Made by a program: the position numbers and the translations under genes
Notes under the pieces: model-generated
What the model saw: only the letters and a program-made list of their open reading frames with translations
Database searches by the model: none
Told to the model about the DNA's origin: nothing
Part shown: piece by piece, positions 1-5,768 of the stretch
How the letters are laid out: every line of letters starts with the position of its first letter
How positions within the stretch are numbered: position 1 is the stretch's first letter
IMG/VR virus record: IMGVR_UViG_3300046794_000505
Location: 1-64,000 of that record
DNA length: 64,000 bases
Source: a virus
Reading direction: 5' to 3' (one strand)

Positions 1-932
1 ACGTGACCAACGAAGTCGACGCCGCGATCCACGGGTTGCAGGATGGTCTTCGTCGGGTTCAACTTGGCGCCAAGGCTCGGCAGGAATGCTTCGACCTCAG
101 CCTTCCAAGCGTTGAGCTGTTGCGGAGACTCATGCAGGAACACGAAGTCGTCGACGTAGCGGATGTAATGCTTGGCGCCGAGCTGGTGCTTCGCGAACTG
201 GTCCAGCGCGTTCAGGTACACGTTGGCGAAGAACTGCGACGACAGGTTACCGATCGGCAGGCCAAGGTGCGCCGGCTGCGCGGTGAGGCGCTTGTGCTGC
301 GGTACCCGGTTGAACAAATGGGCCGGGCTGCGCACCTCGTAATTCTCGCGAGGGTCGTGCATCAGGATCTGTTCGGCGAGTGCCAACCACCATGGCTCGG
401 TGATCTTCGTGGCCAACTGTCGGCGCAGCACCTCTTTGTCGATCGCGACGAAGAAGTTGGCCAAGTCCAGCTTCAAATAGAAGACCGGCTTCGACCAGTT
501 CTGACTGGCGCTGCGAATCTTCGCCTCAAGGCGCTTTGCGGCGTACAGCGTGCCGCGACCGGGAATGCAGGCGCAACTGTCCGCTATGAAGCTGGCGTAG
601 AAGCGCGGGGCCACACGGTTGTACAGCAGGTGGTGGACGACGCGGTCCCGGAAGGCTGCGGCCCAAACCTCGCGGGCTTTCGGCCGAGTGACCACGAAGC
701 ATATCGATCGGCCTGGCCGGTAGGTGCCGGCGAGCAGGTCGTCGTGTAGACCGATCAGGTTCTTTTCCAGGTCCATTTCGAAAGCCAGCGCGCTGGCGCT
801 GTTGCGCTTCGAGCGCCGGCAGTCGTAGTAGGCCTGGACCAGATCGCTGAACGGGTAGGGACCAACATTCGAATCTGCGGACGGGGCGGACGCGGAGCTC
901 GTTGTACTTGTCGTCGCTGACCTGATAGCCAT
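1..932 (-). CDS. DGR reverse transcriptase (3' end runs off the window)
   Basis: Hand translation of the minus strand (absent from the ORF track because there is no stop in the window): ...FSDLVQAYYDCRRSKR...KAREVWAAAFRDRVVHH...LKLDLANFF...GLPIGNLSSQFFANVYL...YIRYVDDF...GVDFVGH. The GLPIGNLSSQ and YVDD motifs are typical of DGR RTs. First in-frame ATG is at 932-930, inside the TR. Confidence 0.96.
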   Translation of the reverse strand, partial: MAIRSATTSTTSSASAPSADSNVGPYPFSDLVQAYYDCRRSKRNSASALAFEMDLEKNLIGLHDDLLAGTYRPGRSICFVVTRPKAREVWAAAFRDRVVHHLLYNRVAPRFYASFIADSCACIPGRGTLYAAKRLEAKIRSASQNWSKPVFYLKLDLANFFVAIDKEVLRRQLATKITEPWWLALAEQILMHDPRENYEVRSPAHLFNRVPQHKRLTAQPAHLGLPIGNLSSQFFANVYLNALDQFAKHQLGAKHYIRYVDDFVFLHESPQQLNAWKAEVEAFLPSLGAKLNPTKTILQPVDRGVDFVGH

Positions 933-975
933 CAGCGAAGTTCATGTTGAATGCGTTGTTGGCGGAGCGCTGCGA
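872..975 (-). repeat. DGR template repeat (TR)
   Basis: About 104-bp copy of the 3' ends of both target genes, AAC-rich (tcg cag cgc tcc gcc aac aac gca ttc aac atg aac...). Differs from VR2 only at adenines. Lies between avd and RT. Confidence 0.95.
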
Positions 976-1146
976 CCTATCGTGCTATCTACGTCGCCAA
1001 GCCGAAGGCAGAGCCGATCAGCAAGGAAACTGCGCGAGACCAGCACGGACGCTTTAGACCGTCGGTATCTCTGATGCGCATGGCGGTGACCCAGAGGTCA
1101 GCGGCACGACCAGATTCAATTCGCACAGACCTGAAAGCCGTGACTC

Positions 1147-1503
1147 TCAGGTGGCGGGCGCGGTTGGGGTGGAGCGTTTCCAGGCATTGGCCTGCTTGCC
1201 GATTGAGGTGGTGACCTCGATCGCGGTGGCGTGCTGCCCGACACTGATGAACCGACTTTCCTTGAAAAGCCGCATCAGGAACTCGATCACCTGGACCTTC
1301 TCAACCAGCAAGGTCAGATGTGGGTGCTTGTCCCGGGTCGAGTTAGCCCGGGCAATCAACATCAGCACGTCGATGCACTCGTCGATGACGCGCTTCCCGA
1401 GAGACTGCTTGAGATCTCGAGGAATGTTGCGGGTGAGGTTCGTGGACATCTGAAGCAGGCCCAGCGAAGCCTTATAGATCGATAGTTCTGTGTGCATTCC
1501 CAT
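1147..1503 (-). CDS. avd: DGR accessory variability determinant (Avd, four-helix bundle)
   Basis: 118-aa basic helical protein (HTELSIYK...IPRDLKQSLGKRV...IGKQANAWKR) directly upstream of TR/RT. Confidence 0.9.
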   Translation of the reverse strand: MGMHTELSIYKASLGLLQMSTNLTRNIPRDLKQSLGKRVIDECIDVLMLIARANSTRDKHPHLTLLVEKVQVIEFLMRLFKESRFISVGQHATAIEVTTSIGKQANAWKRSTPTAPAT

Positions 1504-1560: not shown

Positions 1561-2181
1561 TCAATCGAATAATTGGCTGCGGACGGGGCGGACGCGGAGC
1601 TCGACGCACTTGACGCTGAGGCTCTGAAGGCCATCATCGAAGTACATGAAGAATGCGTTGTCGGCGGAGCGCTGCGAACTCGACCAGTACCAGGTGTCTC
1701 GGAAGGCTTCAGCACCACCTTCTTGGAAGGCTTCCAGAGTGGTCTGGGTTGGCGATTTATCGCTGTACAGTAGGCCTACCGGCTCGCTGTTCGGGTTGTC
1801 ACCATCGCGCCAGCCTGCCCAGTTCGTTTCGGTGATCGGCTTGAAGTGGCGATACTGCAGCTCTTGTACGTCGCGCGCCGGGATTGCCCAGTCGCTGAAT
1901 CCGCCGATCACCAAGGCCAGAGTCTTCTGTGCCAGTTCGCTACCAGCAGCGGCCATTGCCTCGGTGTTGCCGCGACTATCAGTGAGGCTATCGGCGCCCT
2001 CGATCTTCACTCCGTACTCGCCGTAGGCACCGGTCAGTTCGTGCGCGGCGCCGGCGGTGATGTTCAGGTAGCGCTTTCCCGTGTCCGGGTCGCGGGTGAT
2101 GCCAGAGAAGAAGCCGCCACCGTAGGGCTGGCCAATTTCAGGGATTGTCATTGCTGGCGCTGCTTTCTCTACTGCGGACAT
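1561..2181 (-). CDS. DGR target protein 1 (DUF1566/CLec-like C-terminus)
   Basis: IGQPYGGGFFSG...DWAIPARDVQEL...YWSSSQRSA...ELRVRPVR. The C-terminus is VR1. GAGG RBS precedes ATG 2181. Confidence 0.9.
   Translation of the reverse strand: MSAVEKAAPAMTIPEIGQPYGGGFFSGITRDPDTGKRYLNITAGAAHELTGAYGEYGVKIEGADSLTDSRGNTEAMAAAGSELAQKTLALVIGGFSDWAIPARDVQELQYRHFKPITETNWAGWRDGDNPNSEPVGLLYSDKSPTQTTLEAFQEGGAEAFRDTWYWSSSQRSADNAFFMYFDDGLQSLSVKCVELRVRPVRSQLFD
1577..1677 (-). repeat. DGR variable repeat VR1
   Basis: Aligns ungapped to TR with 11 mismatches at TR adenines and 6 at non-A positions confined to the TR core. Confidence 0.9.
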
Positions 2182-2257
2182 GGTCTTTCCTCTTTTCGAA
2201 GGCAACAAAAAGGCGCTGCTGTGCCCGGTGCCGGATCAAGAATGGATGAATGAAGGA

Positions 2258-2857
2258 TTAAATAAACAATCTGCGGACGGGGCGGACGCGGAGCTCGTAG
2301 TACTTGCCGTCGCTGACCTGATAGCCATCAGCGAAGTGCATGTAGAATGCGCCGTTGGCGGAGCGCTGCGCACTCGTCCAGTACGCCCCTGTGGTGATCA
2401 GGCCGTTGACCCACACCTGGTGCATATCGGCAGGTGAACCCAAGAAGAAGTCATGGTGACCGTCGGAGGTGTACTTGGCGGCAGCATTGGCGGCAGGATG
2501 ATCACCTTCCGTGAGAAGGATCTCGGTGTTCCTCATGCCGTCCCATTTACTGGTGGCGCCTGACTCGGTTCCGCGACCGCCCCACGCGTGCTCACCGACG
2601 TCTTCAGTGGCGAGGATGAGGTAGTGCGCAGGGATATTGCCGCGAGCCGGAACCGGACCACCGTTGATGCCGCCTTGGCCCGGCCAGTACTCGCCGAGCG
2701 CCGGGATGGAGTAGGGCGCAATCGGTTGCACGTTGGCCGCAGGTGGCAACACCTGAGCAAACACGCTGGCCATGGCCAGTTGCGCGAGGGCAGCTGCTGG
2801 CATCTTGATGGTGGACTGCCCATGCTTAAGGGTGATCATTTCAGATTTCAATTTCAT
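2258..2857 (-). CDS. DGR target protein 2 (DUF1566/CLec-like C-terminus)
   Basis: LGEYWPGQGGINGG...YWTSAQRSA...ELRVRPVRR. The C-terminus is VR2. GGAG RBS precedes ATG 2857. Confidence 0.9.
   Translation of the reverse strand: MKLKSEMITLKHGQSTIKMPAAALAQLAMASVFAQVLPPAANVQPIAPYSIPALGEYWPGQGGINGGPVPARGNIPAHYLILATEDVGEHAWGGRGTESGATSKWDGMRNTEILLTEGDHPAANAAAKYTSDGHHDFFLGSPADMHQVWVNGLITTGAYWTSAQRSANGAFYMHFADGYQVSDGKYYELRVRPVRRLFI
2268..2370 (-). repeat. DGR variable repeat VR2
   Basis: Six mismatches to TR, all at TR adenines (AAC>GGC, AAC>TAC, AAC>CAC, GAC>GGC, AAC>TAC). Confidence 0.95.
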
Positions 2858-2903
2858 GCCATAACTCCCTGAGTAATTAATCGCGTTTTGTGTGTGCTGA
2901 TGC

Positions 2904-2932
2904 ATTATTCAGTAGTTACGACATTAAAGCAA
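2904..2932 (-). promoter_or_regulatory. sigma70-like promoter for the DGR operon
   Basis: TTGCTT-17-AATAAT about 45 nt upstream of target 2. Confidence 0.55.
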
Positions 2933-3098: not shown

Positions 3099-5768
3099 CT
3101 AGGACTGCGATCTGCCCACTTCGCACCATACGCCCGTATAAATCTGACGCAGCACTAGCACCGAGTGCGATGAGGTAGGCGTGAAGCTAGCGCCTCCGTT
3201 TAAAAAGATAGTTGAGGCATTGTGTTGGATCGTCGTATTAGTATTACTGAAAGTGACTGTCAGCAATTGCCCGATTCGACCACCTAGAATGGCGGTAACA
3301 GTCACCGCACTTGCCTGGTTAAAGTTCAGGATATCGGCTGAAGCCAGTCCGGTTGTCGAGCCCAGTCCTATGGATGGCGTACCTCCTAAGGTGGCGTAAG
3401 AGATTCGTCGGATATTCCGCTCCCAAAGACCCATAACGGCGCCCGCATCAGGCCCGGCATTGTTACTAAAATTCTGGTCAAAATGAGAGTCTTCGAGATG
3501 GATACGGTTCTGCGCCGTATAGCCCCCCGTATAGTTAAATCCGTAACCAGAGGCCGCACCGTACGTCGACACGGTTCGGAAATAGGGGCGGCGCACGTGT
3601 AGATCTACAGCACTGGCAGCGTTAAAGAAATAGCCGCTGTTAGAGGTATTATGCAAACACATATCGAATTCGATGCCTGCGCCATCATTGACGTACACGT
3701 CGAATTGATTCGTGGATCCGTCCGCTATCTTGCCATTGTTCGTAAAATAATTATTGACGAACTTACAATTTCTAGGCAGATCATTCCCGCCTGCTGAGTT
3801 CACGTGGACCGCGTTATACCGGGCCTGCTCAACTTGGAATCCGATGAATTGGGTATTATAGACACCAGCTCCTAGCGTCACACCATGATCACTTGAATAA
3901 CTCACCTGCCCGCCGATAAACACTAGTGGTCCAAATGTGCCCTGGGTCACGCCATTGCGACCCAGGTAGATCCCGTTAGCTTTATAGACGTCCAGATTGG
4001 TGACGACCCACATATTGATCTGGCCGCCGCTCGTATCACTATGCAGGTACAGCCCCTTGCCGGTCCAGGTTCCATCGGATGGGTCGTCACCGCGAATCTG
4101 GACGTTATCGACGCGCACACCCCAATCGTTCTCGCTGTTCCACCCATAACCAGCGCCGTTGCGCTGCCGGATGAACATGTTATTCAGGCTAACCAGCTCT
4201 GTGCAATCCTGCGTGTGCAGCACGCTGGCCGAGGTTGTCGCCCCTACCAGGTTTACCCGCTCAAGGGTGACGCACATGGCCGTACCGCCAGGAGACGACA
4301 CACTAAAGACCCCCAAGATTCCCAGCAAAGTACCGGTAGATCCTGCCGCATGCACCAAGGCCGAGCCTTGGGGCTCCTGCGCTCCGGTCGCAATGCCGGC
4401 TGCATTCCCCATAATATGAATACGACCTGGTTTTGCAGCATACCCTGGGTTTAAAGTTGCGTCGTAGTAGCCGTAAAGGTCTCCAGTACGGTATTTCGCT
4501 CCAGCTTTAAGGCGGATAGATCGCCCTGCAATTGAGGCAAAATTGAGCATGTTCTGAAGTGCAACGGTATTTAAGGTTCCAGTACCTGTGGTGTAATTGT
4601 AATCACCGACTGCTCCAAAATCCTCTGGTGACAAAGGCATATCAAGCAATTTTCCCAGAAAGCTGCGGGCAACCGCCCCCGTTCCAGATTGGATAAATCC
4701 AAGAAAAGCACTTGTGACAAATGTTGCTATATTAGCGAGTGTCGTTTGCAGAAGCCCGACACCGCGGCTGGCCGGCAACGATTCCGAGCCAGTCAGCGTC
4801 CCTACATCTGGCGCAGTGTTCAATCCTTGCAGAAATGCCGCAAGAACGCGAGACCCACTGAAGTACAGATTAGTGGCCCCCTCGGTTACCGCATCCGTAG
4901 ACCCTGGCGAAGCAATGATCGGTGCATAGGCCGATCCAGCCCAGCGGAACTGAGAACTGGTTACGCCGCCAGATGTGTAAGGAGTGTCAGTGACGTAAAT
5001 CTTGCCTGACTCGCCGGTCACCGGCAGGGATGCGAAATCGGCGAACTCCAGGACGTCGTCAACATAGGACGGCAGCTGCGAAGACGGCACGACCCCGCCG
5101 ACCAAGCTGGCGATTGATACGCCGACGGCCGTCGGTTGAACTGCGGTGTCAGCCTTTACGCCTTGGGCCGCCGTGGCAGCGCCAATGTCGGATGGGGCGG
5201 ACGGGATAGAAGGCTTGCTCAACAGATCGCTGTAGGAACCGGAGGTGGCAACTATAGCTAGAGCGCCAGGCTGTACAGCTGTGTCGGCCTTGGCACCCTG
5301 CGCAGCTGTCGCGGCTCCGATATCAGATGGAACCGAAGGGATCGCCGGTTTATTCGACAAATCGACATAGGAACCAGACGTCGCGACGACGGATAGGTCG
5401 CTTGGCTGAACCGCGGAATCTGCCTTACTCCCCTGCGCCGCAGTAGCCTTCCCATCCAGCGCCGATTGCAACCCGGACACAGTATCAATCGCCTGCGTCC
5501 CGGTATGGTTCGAGCGCGCCCGAAGAAACACATCTGTCGAGTTAGCTGTCGCGCCGATCTCGATTGTGGCTAGTTTCTCATTGATGGCGGTCAGGTCTTG
5601 GATAGGACCCGGCGGCCCACGCAGCTGACTCTCGATCGTCCTGATGCCGAAGCCCTGAATGGATGAGGCGTCCACCGTCTGGATGGTGAACTTCAGGTTT
5701 GTGCCGGCCAGGAGCATTTCACCCGTTGCAGTGATAGTGCCCAGGCGACTGACCGTAGCAATGATCAT
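3099..5768 (-). CDS. Tailspike / depolymerase-like receptor-binding protein
   Basis: N-terminal (DIGA)ATAAQGxKADxAVQP repeats, tailspike junction motif QSGTGAVARS...SPEDFGAVGD, then an Asn/Gly-rich beta-helix-like body. Confidence 0.75.
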   Translation of the reverse strand: MIIATVSRLGTITATGEMLLAGTNLKFTIQTVDASSIQGFGIRTIESQLRGPPGPIQDLTAINEKLATIEIGATANSTDVFLRARSNHTGTQAIDTVSGLQSALDGKATAAQGSKADSAVQPSDLSVVATSGSYVDLSNKPAIPSVPSDIGAATAAQGAKADTAVQPGALAIVATSGSYSDLLSKPSIPSAPSDIGAATAAQGVKADTAVQPTAVGVSIASLVGGVVPSSQLPSYVDDVLEFADFASLPVTGESGKIYVTDTPYTSGGVTSSQFRWAGSAYAPIIASPGSTDAVTEGATNLYFSGSRVLAAFLQGLNTAPDVGTLTGSESLPASRGVGLLQTTLANIATFVTSAFLGFIQSGTGAVARSFLGKLLDMPLSPEDFGAVGDYNYTTGTGTLNTVALQNMLNFASIAGRSIRLKAGAKYRTGDLYGYYDATLNPGYAAKPGRIHIMGNAAGIATGAQEPQGSALVHAAGSTGTLLGILGVFSVSSPGGTAMCVTLERVNLVGATTSASVLHTQDCTELVSLNNMFIRQRNGAGYGWNSENDWGVRVDNVQIRGDDPSDGTWTGKGLYLHSDTSGGQINMWVVTNLDVYKANGIYLGRNGVTQGTFGPLVFIGGQVSYSSDHGVTLGAGVYNTQFIGFQVEQARYNAVHVNSAGGNDLPRNCKFVNNYFTNNGKIADGSTNQFDVYVNDGAGIEFDMCLHNTSNSGYFFNAASAVDLHVRRPYFRTVSTYGAASGYGFNYTGGYTAQNRIHLEDSHFDQNFSNNAGPDAGAVMGLWERNIRRISYATLGGTPSIGLGSTTGLASADILNFNQASAVTVTAILGGRIGQLLTVTFSNTNTTIQHNASTIFLNGGASFTPTSSHSVLVLRQIYTGVWCEVGRSQS

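What the first reader, a model, noticed from the sequence alone, without database searches (positions are those of the whole stretch)
913..936. The template repeat itself looks mutagenised or overwritten (TR core equals VR2, incompatible with VR1)
Seen: VR2 differs from TR at 6 sites, all adenines. VR1 differs at 11 adenines plus 6 non-A sites (GCT>GAT, TAT>CTT, GTC>AGC, AGC>CTC, GAC>AGC). All six fall in one 8-codon block at codon positions 1-2, exactly where TR is identical to VR2. Standard retrohoming cannot make VR1 from this TR. One ancestral core, GAT GAT GGC AAT CAG AAC AAC AAC, explains TR, VR1 and VR2 using only A-to-N changes. Inference: mutagenised sequence has entered the supposedly invariant TR, by self-retrohoming or VR2-to-TR gene conversion. 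That fixes those residues and shrinks the future repertoire, a possible ratchet or memory mechanism. Alternative: VR1 was written in trans by a second TR elsewhere.
Basis: partly seen in the sequence, partly recalled or inferred. Interest (0 to 1): 0.85.

Follow-up and report, generated by a model that had tools for sequence, protein, structure and literature searches.

The report
DGR template overwritten by mutagenised sequence
In this Pseudomonas-type phage, the master template of a protein-diversifying retroelement, which is supposed never to change, has had seven of its mutable adenines replaced by bases that one of its two target genes also carries, while the other target still records the original template.

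Summary
VR2 differs from TR at 6 sites, all TR adenines. VR1 differs at 11 adenines plus 6 non-adenine sites, all in TR 935..915.

It predicted an ancestral core GAT GAT GGC AAT CAG AAC AAC AAC. About 110 distinct related DGR loci carry an AAC AAC AAC core, and most carry exactly that sequence. These loci come from isolated Pseudomonas phages, IMG/VR contigs, Pseudomonas genomes and metagenomes.

On a tree of the Avd and RT flanks, this phage sits deep inside the intact-template clade, so its TR is the derived state. Seven ancestral adenines changed (window 935, 927, 921, 920, 917, 915, 906), and each now equals VR2. Against the family-consensus TR, both VRs differ only at adenines (15 and 13 sites, no others).

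There is no second TR in the phage. RT, Avd and both targets are intact.

Smaller erosions arose independently in about a dozen relatives, often leaving one VR out of date in the same way.

The route is unresolved. I favour short-patch gene conversion from VR2 into TR (about 45%) over self-homing of the cDNA into TR (about 30%). The phage's own reads were not available, but an assembler mosaic is implausible.

Earlier notes from this scan report the same kind of template erosion on other DNA.

The parts
1..932 (-). DGR reverse transcriptase gene. This is the 5' part; the ORF runs off the window start and continues at the end of the circularly permuted record (388 codons in all).
   Evidence: Pfam RVT_1, E=1.4e-16. 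The full ORF was rebuilt across the 127-nt terminal overlap and carries YVDD and the DGR-type LGxxxSQ motif.
875..974 (-). Template repeat (TR). The adenine-variable part is about 960..902. The GC-rich block 900..875 is identical in TR, VR1 and VR2.
   Evidence: Ungapped alignment with VR1 and VR2. Both TR-specific flanks are conserved in relatives.
906..935 (-). Overwritten block of the TR. Seven ancestral adenines (935, 927, 921, 920, 917, 915, 906) are now C, T, G, T, G, G, T on the coding strand, each equal to VR2.
   Evidence: Comparison with about 110 distinct related TRs. Tree polarity. Environmental contigs differ from the window at exactly these 7 places.
973..1163 (-). RT-15 structured RNA (Rfam RF03018). 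It lies between avd and TR and ends where the TR begins.
   Evidence: cmscan 183 bits, E=5e-46, full-length model match.
1147..1503 (-). Accessory variability determinant (Avd), 118 aa.
   Evidence: Pfam bAvd PF22296, 46.6 bits, above the cut-off of 40.
1561..2208 (-). Target gene 1 (215 aa, lectin-fold C-terminus), intact ORF.
   Evidence: Pfam Lcl_C, E=2.5e-5, below the curated cut-off. PHROG 4245, E=1e-29.
1577..1676 (-). VR1, the 'stale' variable repeat. It differs from the present TR at 11 A and 6 non-A sites, and from the family-consensus TR at 15 A and 0 non-A sites.
2258..2905 (-). Target gene 2 (215 aa, lectin-fold C-terminus), intact ORF.
   Evidence: Pfam Lcl_C, E=0.0015, below the cut-off. 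PHROG 4245, E=1.2e-25.
2271..2370 (-). VR2, which agrees with the present TR (6 A-only differences, the fewest in the family). It differs from the consensus TR at 13 A-only sites.

Best explanation
This is a canonical phage DGR: target2-VR2, target1-VR1, avd, RT-15 RNA, TR, RT. A 30-nt patch of its TR (window 935..906) has been replaced by adenine-mutagenised sequence.

Shown: the ancestral TR had GAT GAT GGC AAT CAG AAC AAC AAC GAC AAG AAC here. The present TR has lost 7 of those adenines and equals VR2 at every one of them. VR1 fits only the ancestral TR, so it is a record of the template before the change.

Inferred route, my preferred one: a short-patch, non-reciprocal homologous exchange (gene conversion) copied the central part of an already diversified VR2 into the TR 1.4 kb away. 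A later short retrohoming event at the 3' end of VR2 then changed VR2 at TR positions 911 and 903. VR1 has not been rewritten through the block since.

Consequence, from the codon tables: six codons are now fixed or restricted in every future cDNA. That cuts the theoretical protein repertoire about 10^4-fold (4^7 at the nucleotide level).

My confidence that the TR is derived and was overwritten by DGR-type mutagenised sequence, by whichever route, is about 0.9. The confidence given in the confidence field is for the gene-conversion route specifically.
For: Polarity and reality of the change:
- Two isolated phages (SC_8_H2H8_2017, Cruim01) have the predicted core.
- So do 68 and 74 IMG/VR loci, 15 Pseudomonas genomes and 22 metagenome contigs (read out).
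- So do 80 loci found through the RT protein, a search blind to TR state.
- On the Avd+RT flank tree of 77 unique loci, the window is nested among intact TRs, and its sister L022 is intact.
- All 7 TR changes fall on adenines (P=2.7e-4 if placed at random). At the family's rate of A-site change, the window's terminal branch should carry 0.1 such changes (Poisson P of 7 or more = 2e-11), or 1.55 even if the sites were neutral.
- With the consensus TR, both VRs differ only at adenines: 15/0 and 13/0.
- Contigs from four unrelated metagenomes differ from the window's TR at exactly these 7 places.

A patch, not a full-length copy: none of the 10 upstream adenines changed. P=1.3e-4 for a full-length mutagenised copy at family per-site frequencies.

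TR and VR2 look identical by descent inside the patch:
- VR2 has 6 differences from the TR, against a family range of 9-19 and a median of 14.
- Only 1 of the mutable adenines retained inside the patch differs, where 3.7 are expected (P of 1 or fewer = 0.028).

Patch-like behaviour elsewhere in the family: erosions that hit several sites are confined to neighbouring codons. L017, L027, L045/47 and L173 changed the last two AAC codons. L150 changed only the first two AAC codons, which a 3'-anchored homing event would not produce.
Against: - One site inside the patch breaks a simple single-tract transfer from the present VR2: TR 911 is A (GAC) while VR2 has G (GGC). This needs a later event in VR2 or patchy repair.
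- The longest uninterrupted TR/VR identity available to initiate recombination is only the roughly 31-nt GC-rich 3' block.
- No single-strand annealing recombinase (RecT, ERF, Rad52 families) was found in the phage record, so host functions would have to act.
- The 0.028 figure uses family-wide frequencies that include selection. With a flat 50% misincorporation rate it is about 0.11.
- Sequence alone cannot tell the direction of transfer.
- The phage's own reads could not be inspected.
Confidence: 0.45

Rival explanations
1. Self-retrohoming. A mutagenised TR cDNA integrated into the TR itself instead of a VR, either anchored at the shared GC-rich 3' block or by IMH-independent annealing. This changed 7 of the 19 adenines in the 3' two-thirds of the TR. 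VR2 was then rewritten from the eroded TR, while VR1 was not.
For: - All 7 changes are at adenines, and 7 of 19 (37%) is a normal mutational density for one homing event.
- The published median is about 50% of available positions (bioRxiv 10.1101/2024.11.15.621889).
- TR and both VRs share an identical 26-nt GC-rich 3' block, so part of the target signal is present at the TR.
- Four independent erosions in relatives hit only the last two AAC codons next to that block, as short 3'-anchored tracts would.
- The TR 911 A versus VR2 G difference needs no extra assumption.
- Recombineering-coupled DGR mutagenesis gives mutations in the middle of the TR with unaltered flanks and needs no IMH (bioRxiv 10.1101/2025.03.24.644984). 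The block seen here has that layout.
Against: - VR2 is more like the TR inside the block than an independent rewrite predicts (P=0.028 at family frequencies, about 0.11 at a flat 50%).
- In the model system, directionality is enforced by IMH and the downstream stem-loop (PMC3240598, PMC5703328).
- The sequence downstream of the TR is the conserved TR-type flank, not a VR-type one.
- L150 changed only the two 5'-most AAC codons, which does not fit 3'-anchored homing.
Confidence: 0.3
2. Ordinary point mutations accumulated one by one at TR adenines. Such changes are tolerated, or even favoured because they fix well-adapted residues. VR2 was later rewritten from the changed TR.
For: - A theoretical preprint predicts loss of TR adenines by point mutation in stable environments (bioRxiv 10.64898/2026.02.18.706561).
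- Single-site TR changes exist in relatives: L044, L013, L097, L075, L185.
- Selection on the scaffold would filter out non-A changes, so A-specificity alone does not prove RT involvement.
Against: - Seven changes lie on a terminal branch of 0.054 substitutions per site. Even the neutral expectation for 29 adenines is 1.55, and the family rate gives 0.1 (P=2e-11).
- All seven lie in 30 nt, while 10 upstream adenines are untouched.
- Multi-site changes in relatives are also confined to adjacent codons.
Confidence: 0.05
3. Assembly or consensus artefact. The true TR is AAC-rich, and the contig's TR is a mosaic with VR2 reads.
For: - The source reads could not be examined. No served run holds more than 10% of the sampled words, and the laid contigs belong to relatives.
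- TR and VRs are near-repeats, which are a known hazard for assemblers.
Against: - A mosaic of an ancestral TR and VR2 would need four crossovers inside identity runs of 6, 3, 4 and 2 nt: between TR 942/935, 915/911, 911/906 and 906/903 (sequence).
- No k-mer or overlap assembler joins on such short runs.
- The TR keeps TR-specific flanks on both sides.
- The 127-nt terminal overlap suggests a final k of 127. That is my inference. A 127-nt word would span the whole TR with both flanks.
Confidence: 0.05
4. The TR is original and VR1 is the odd one. Either VR1 was written in trans by a second TR, or it is an abandoned target that is drifting.
For: The family's GC-rich 3' block is conserved across phages, so a co-resident relative's AAC-rich TR could in principle write VR1.
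Against: - There is no second TR in the complete phage record.
- This TR is the outlier among about 110 relatives and is nested inside them on the tree, so it changed whatever wrote VR1.
- VR1's 15 differences from the consensus TR are all at adenines and at codon positions 1-2. Drift would not give that pattern.
- The target 1 ORF is intact.
Confidence: 0.02

Closest known systems
Bordetella phage BPP-1 DGR (mtd-VR/IMH, avd, TR/IMH*, brt): canonical mutagenic retrohoming
   Same: RT with DGR motifs, bAvd, a TR/VR pair with adenine-specific differences, a GC-rich block at the 3' end of both repeats, and lectin-fold targets diversified at codon positions 1-2 of AAY codons.
   Different: In BPP-1 the TR 'remains unchanged throughout the process', and IMH plus a stem-loop set the direction (PMC3240598, PMC5703328). 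Here the TR itself carries seven adenine substitutions. This element also has two tandem small targets and an RT-15 RNA upstream of the TR, and the RT ORF starts inside the TR.
The Pseudomonas (pro)phage DGR family with two or three small lectin-fold targets (e.g. phages SC_8_H2H8_2017 and Cruim01, many IMG/VR UViGs)
   Same: Same gene order, the same TR flanks and about 79-87% nucleotide identity over the cassette. RT identity reaches 95% at the amino-acid level.
   Different: Their TRs keep the AAC-rich core. This member lost 7 adenines in one block, the largest erosion among about 110 distinct loci examined. The others lost 0-3.
'Noncanonical' non-A-to-N TR/VR differences catalogued by Wu et al. 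2018 (NAR 46:11, PMC5758913)
   Same: They report non-A differences in 23% of DGRs. One example has a target with seven non-A differences while the other target has only A-to-N differences. That is the same pattern as here.
   Different: They attribute such differences to atypical RT incorporation, integration errors or independent mutation, and suggest an added mutagenic capability. Here the comparison with relatives shows that the template changed, not the VR.
Theoretical 'slow TR evolution' model (Amoroso et al., bioRxiv 10.64898/2026.02.18.706561)
   Same: It predicts that TRs can lose adenines and so fix adapted residues.
   Different: The model uses single point mutations at the background rate. 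The event here is a clustered seven-site replacement that matches a VR.

Membership tests
Diversity-generating retroelement (DGR) | Reverse transcriptase of the DGR type (RVT_1 fold, YxDD catalytic motif, I/LGxxxSQ motif) | tested here: met
   RVT_1, E=1.4e-16. YVDD at residue 259 and LGLPIGNLSSQ at 227 of the 387-aa ORF.
Diversity-generating retroelement (DGR) | Accessory variability determinant (Avd) next to the TR | tested here: met
   bAvd PF22296, 46.6 bits, above the cut-off of 40.
Diversity-generating retroelement (DGR) | A TR/VR pair whose differences fall only at TR adenines | tested here: met
   VR2 meets it: 6 of 6 differences are at adenines. VR1 does not meet it with the present TR (11 A + 6 non-A), but does with the family-consensus TR (15 of 15).
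Diversity-generating retroelement (DGR) | TR is invariant (one-way transfer from TR to VR) | tested here: not met
   The TR differs from about 110 distinct related TRs at 7 ancestral adenines and is nested among them on the tree. This is the anomaly itself. It concerns the state of this copy, not the identity of the element.
Diversity-generating retroelement (DGR) | A GC-rich IMH-type element at the 3' end of the VR, with a TR counterpart that differs downstream | tested here: met
   A 26-nt GC-rich block is identical in TR, VR1 and VR2. The sequences diverge right after it (after 3 more shared bases for VR2).
Diversity-generating retroelement (DGR) | An inverted repeat (stem-loop) downstream of the VR | tested here: inconclusive
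   Whole-region DNA folds are no better than shuffles. By eye, a 7-bp stem with a 4-nt loop lies about 35 nt downstream of VR1. I saw nothing equally clear after VR2.
Diversity-generating retroelement (DGR) | Target protein with a C-type-lectin-like variable C-terminus | tested here: inconclusive
   Lcl_C matches cover the VR-bearing C-termini but fall below Pfam's cut-off (25 and 19 bits against 34.9). PHROG 4245 matches at E=1e-29 and 1e-25. No structure was predicted.
Rfam RF03018 (RT-15 RNA) | Covariance-model match above the gathering score, next to an RT gene | tested here: met
   183 bits against a gathering score of 82, full-length match, at 973..1163 on the minus strand.

The most novel reading that the evidence does not exclude
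DGR templates in nature are not strictly one-way. Diversified sequence flows back into the TR at a measurable rate: about one lineage in ten in this family shows it. It happens in short patches, so a phage can 'save' a successful VR solution into its template and pass it to its other targets. This window catches the process mid-way, with TR and VR2 updated and VR1 still carrying the old state. If the feedback is RT-dependent or selected, it would be a heritable memory layer on top of DGR diversification rather than mere decay.
Probability: 0.2. Interest if true: 0.85.

Novelty: new variant of a known kind. Interest (0 to 1): 0.62.

Why it matters
DGR biology and DGR-detection software both assume an invariant TR and treat non-adenine TR/VR mismatches as RT infidelity or noise. 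This locus and its relatives show that at least some of those mismatches are old VRs left behind after the template itself was rewritten.

The result gives three things:
- A natural estimate of how leaky DGR directionality is. In the RT-based sample of 80 loci, roughly 9 lineages have eroded TRs, and about a dozen independent events appear across all loci examined.
- A concrete way for a DGR to lose or narrow its repertoire, here about 10^4-fold.
- A comparative test that sorts 'noncanonical mutagenesis' into template change versus VR change: compare the VRs with the family-consensus TR.

It also provides data for recent theory on slow TR evolution.

Tried and rejected
- **Second TR in the phage:** none. 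Only three repeat copies exist in the 85.6-kb record.
- **Near-identical relatives to date the event:** none retrievable. The best cassette identity is 84-87% and the best RT amino-acid identity is 95%. A window-specific 41-nt flank pattern found nothing in IMG/VR.
- **Read-level check:** no served run holds more than 10% of the sampled words. The contigs laid from four runs belong to relatives and carry the ancestral adenines, so they say nothing about this assembly.
- **Phage-encoded annealing recombinases:** RecT, ERF and Rad52 families were not found. This does not exclude other recombinases or host functions.
- **Whole-region DNA folds downstream of TR and VRs:** not better than shuffles.
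- **Literature:** full-text searches for natural TR mutagenesis, self-homing or gene conversion in DGRs found no description of this phenomenon. The library is incomplete. The original BPP-1 directionality paper (Doulatov et al. 2004) was not readable here. From memory only, it reported that giving the TR an IMH makes the TR itself variable.
- **'VR1 is drifting':** rejected, because all 15 of its differences from the consensus TR are at adenines.
- **'Assembler mosaic':** rejected as unlikely, because it needs four crossovers in identity runs of 2-6 nt.

Full report
**Anatomy**

The window is the first 64 kb of an 85,776-nt IMG/VR virus record with a 127-nt terminal overlap, which gives 85,649 unique bases.

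On the minus strand it encodes, in order:
- target gene 2 (2905..2258) with VR2 (2370..2271)
- target gene 1 (2208..1561) with VR1 (1676..1577)
- Avd (1503..1147)
- an RT-15 structured RNA (Rfam RF03018, 1163..973, 183 bits)
- the TR (974..875)
- the RT (from 932, across the record ends; 387 aa)

The family assignments are as follows:
- The RT matches Pfam RVT_1 and carries YVDD and the DGR-type LGxxxSQ motif.
- Avd matches bAvd above the cut-off.
- Both 215-aa targets match Lcl_C below the cut-off and PHROG 4245 strongly.

All four ORFs are intact.

**The observation**

The three repeats align without gaps.
- VR2 differs from the TR at 6 places, all TR adenines.
- VR1 differs at 11 adenines and at 6 non-adenine places: TR 935, 927, 921, 920, 917 and 915.
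- All six non-adenine places are at codon positions 1-2 in the block 936..913, where TR equals VR2.

For comparison, in 92 unique VRs from relatives with intact TRs, a search that allowed up to 4 non-A differences found none with more than 3.

**The test with relatives**

The two closest isolated phages, Pseudomonas phages SC_8_H2H8_2017 and Cruim01, have the same gene order. Their TRs read exactly that, followed by GAC AAG AAC AAC.

I then collected related TRs in five ways:
- A TR-specific pattern in IMG/VR gave 68 loci.
- A pattern on the adenine-free TR 5' flank gave 74 IMG/VR loci and 15 Pseudomonas genomes.
- A pattern with N at every adenine site gave 22 metagenome contigs, many of them duplicates of IMG/VR contigs.
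- A search with the RT protein, blind to TR state, gave 80 loci.
- In a second TR subfamily the codons before the core differ, but it also keeps AAC AAC AAC.

Apart from two loci with truncated TRs (L076, L081), every TR keeps at least two of the three core AAC codons. Only two relatives (L075, L147) changed one of them. The window alone lost adenines in all three.

The window's TR differs from the consensus at seven places, all ancestral adenines: 935, 927, 921, 920, 917, 915 and 906. At each of them it equals VR2.

With the consensus TR as reference, VR1 has 15 differences and VR2 has 13. All 28 are at adenines.

**Polarity and chance**

On a maximum-likelihood tree of the Avd and RT flanks (TR removed, 77 unique loci, rooted on the second subfamily), the window sits deep inside the intact-TR clade. 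Its sister, L022, is intact.
- The window's terminal branch is 0.054 substitutions per site.
- At the family's rate of adenine-site change, that branch should carry 0.1 changes (Poisson P of 7 or more = 2e-11).
- Even a neutral rate gives only 1.55.

Contigs from four unrelated soil and wastewater metagenomes, laid on the window, differ from its TR at exactly these seven places. They carry T on the plus strand, which is A on the coding strand. These are relatives, not this phage. They confirm the ancestral state, not the assembly.

**Artefact**

The phage's own reads were not available. A mosaic of an AAC-rich TR with VR2 would need four crossovers in identity runs of 6, 3, 4 and 2 nt, which no assembler produces. 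The TR also keeps its own flanks on both sides. The 127-nt overlap suggests a final k of 127, which would span the whole TR. That last point is inference. I give the artefact reading about 5%.

**How the template was changed**

*A patch, not a full-length copy.* None of the 10 upstream adenines changed. P=1.3e-4 for a full-length copy at family per-site frequencies.

*TR and VR2 are closer than an independent rewrite predicts.*
- There are 6 differences, against a family range of 9-19.
- Only 1 of the mutable adenines retained inside the patch differs, where 3.7 are expected (P=0.028, or about 0.11 with a flat 50% rate).
- This favours direct copying between VR2 and TR.
- Because the TR is the derived partner, I favour VR2-to-TR gene conversion (about 0.45).
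- The one discordant site, TR 911 (A in TR, G in VR2), then needs a later short 3' homing event in VR2 or patchy repair.

*The main rival is self-homing (about 0.3).* A mutagenised cDNA would integrate into the TR, and VR2 would then be rewritten from the changed TR.
- It explains site 911 without extra steps.
- It fits the normal mutational density of 7 of 19 adenines.
- It is made thinkable by the 26-nt GC-rich block shared by TR and both VRs.

*In the model system,* direction is set by IMH and a downstream stem-loop (PMC3240598, PMC5703328).

*Stepwise point mutation* is unlikely because of the clustering and the rate (about 0.05).

**The wider pattern**

Smaller TR erosions arose independently in relatives. 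The last two AAC codons, next to the GC-rich block, changed in four lineages:

| Locus | Last two AAC codons now read |
|---|---|
| L017 | ACC CAC |
| L027 | TTC AGC |
| L045/L047 | GAC GAC |
| L173 | AGC CAC |

Other events:
- L150 changed the first two AAC codons to TAC TAC.
- L044, L013, L097, L075 and L185 changed a single site each.
- L147 and L197 changed two sites each.

In L017, L027, L045/47 and L173, at least one VR carries the new bases while another VR fits only the ancestral TR. That is the same mid-way state as in this window.

In L147, L150 and L197 every VR found, and in L185 the single VR found, follows the new TR. So these elements keep working after erosion.

The window is the most extensive case, with 7 sites against 3 or fewer elsewhere.

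**Consequence**

Future cDNAs will fix or restrict six codons: GAT to GCT, AAT to TAT, and AAC to GTC, AGC, GAC and TAC. From the codon tables, this reduces the protein repertoire about 10^4-fold.

**Literature and the scan's earlier notes**

Wu et al. 2018 catalogued non-A differences in 23% of DGRs. One of their examples has seven such differences in one target and none in the other. They explained these by RT infidelity or independent mutation (PMC5758913).

A 2026 preprint models slow loss of TR adenines by point mutation.

I found no description of natural patch-wise TR overwriting, but the library is incomplete.

Earlier notes from this scan report the same kind of template erosion in other, unrelated phage DGRs. 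They are unchecked here and do not count as evidence. They do suggest the phenomenon is recurrent.

**Verdict**

The route is unresolved, and the 'memory' function is speculative.

Noticed in passing
window 973-1163 (-): A full-length RT-15 RNA (Rfam RF03018, 183 bits) lies between avd and the TR and ends exactly where the TR starts. The only in-frame ATG for the RT lies inside the TR (932). So this family's helper RNA lies 5' of the template, unlike the BPP-1 layout.
   Followed up: partly
L017, L027, L045/L047, L173 (last two AAC codons of their TRs): Four independent relatives lost 2-3 adenines in the two AAC codons next to the GC-rich 3' block. In each, one VR matches the new TR and another fits only the ancestral TR. 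This looks like a hot spot for template erosion.
   Followed up: partly
L150, TR at 3379-3485: The TR has TAC TAC in place of the first two AAC codons, and both VRs follow it. This is an erosion at the 5' end only, which does not fit a 3'-anchored homing tract.
   Followed up: partly
L098, TR and the VR about 1386 nt upstream: The TR reads AAC TCC where the family has AAT CAG. One VR keeps a CAG-type sequence and the other follows the TR. So this template change includes non-adenine sites.
   Followed up: no
L056, L065, L133 (TR 3' end): The invariant GAG CTC just before the GC-rich block is replaced by ACC GCG in the TR. In L056 the VRs show no non-A differences, so they follow it. In L065 each VR has one non-A difference, which I did not locate.
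   Followed up: no
L060, the VR about 694 nt upstream of the TR: This VR carries TGA where the TR has TTC (two non-adenine changes). That is an in-frame stop inside the variable region, so the target is probably disabled.
   Followed up: no
L007, L013, L032, L039, L045, L047, L059: These relatives have a third VR 3.3-7.7 kb upstream of the TR, so the number of targets varies from two to three within the family.
   Followed up: no
whole record (G000, 85,776 nt): The record ends in a 127-nt direct overlap, so it assembled as a circle. At 85.6 kb it is much larger than most related DGR-bearing phages, which are 42-60 kb.
   Followed up: no
L076, L081: Two loci keep the TR 5' flank and the first codons, then continue into unrelated sequence with no VR found. 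These may be truncated or replaced templates. L081 also has TAC TAC for the first two AAC codons.
   Followed up: no
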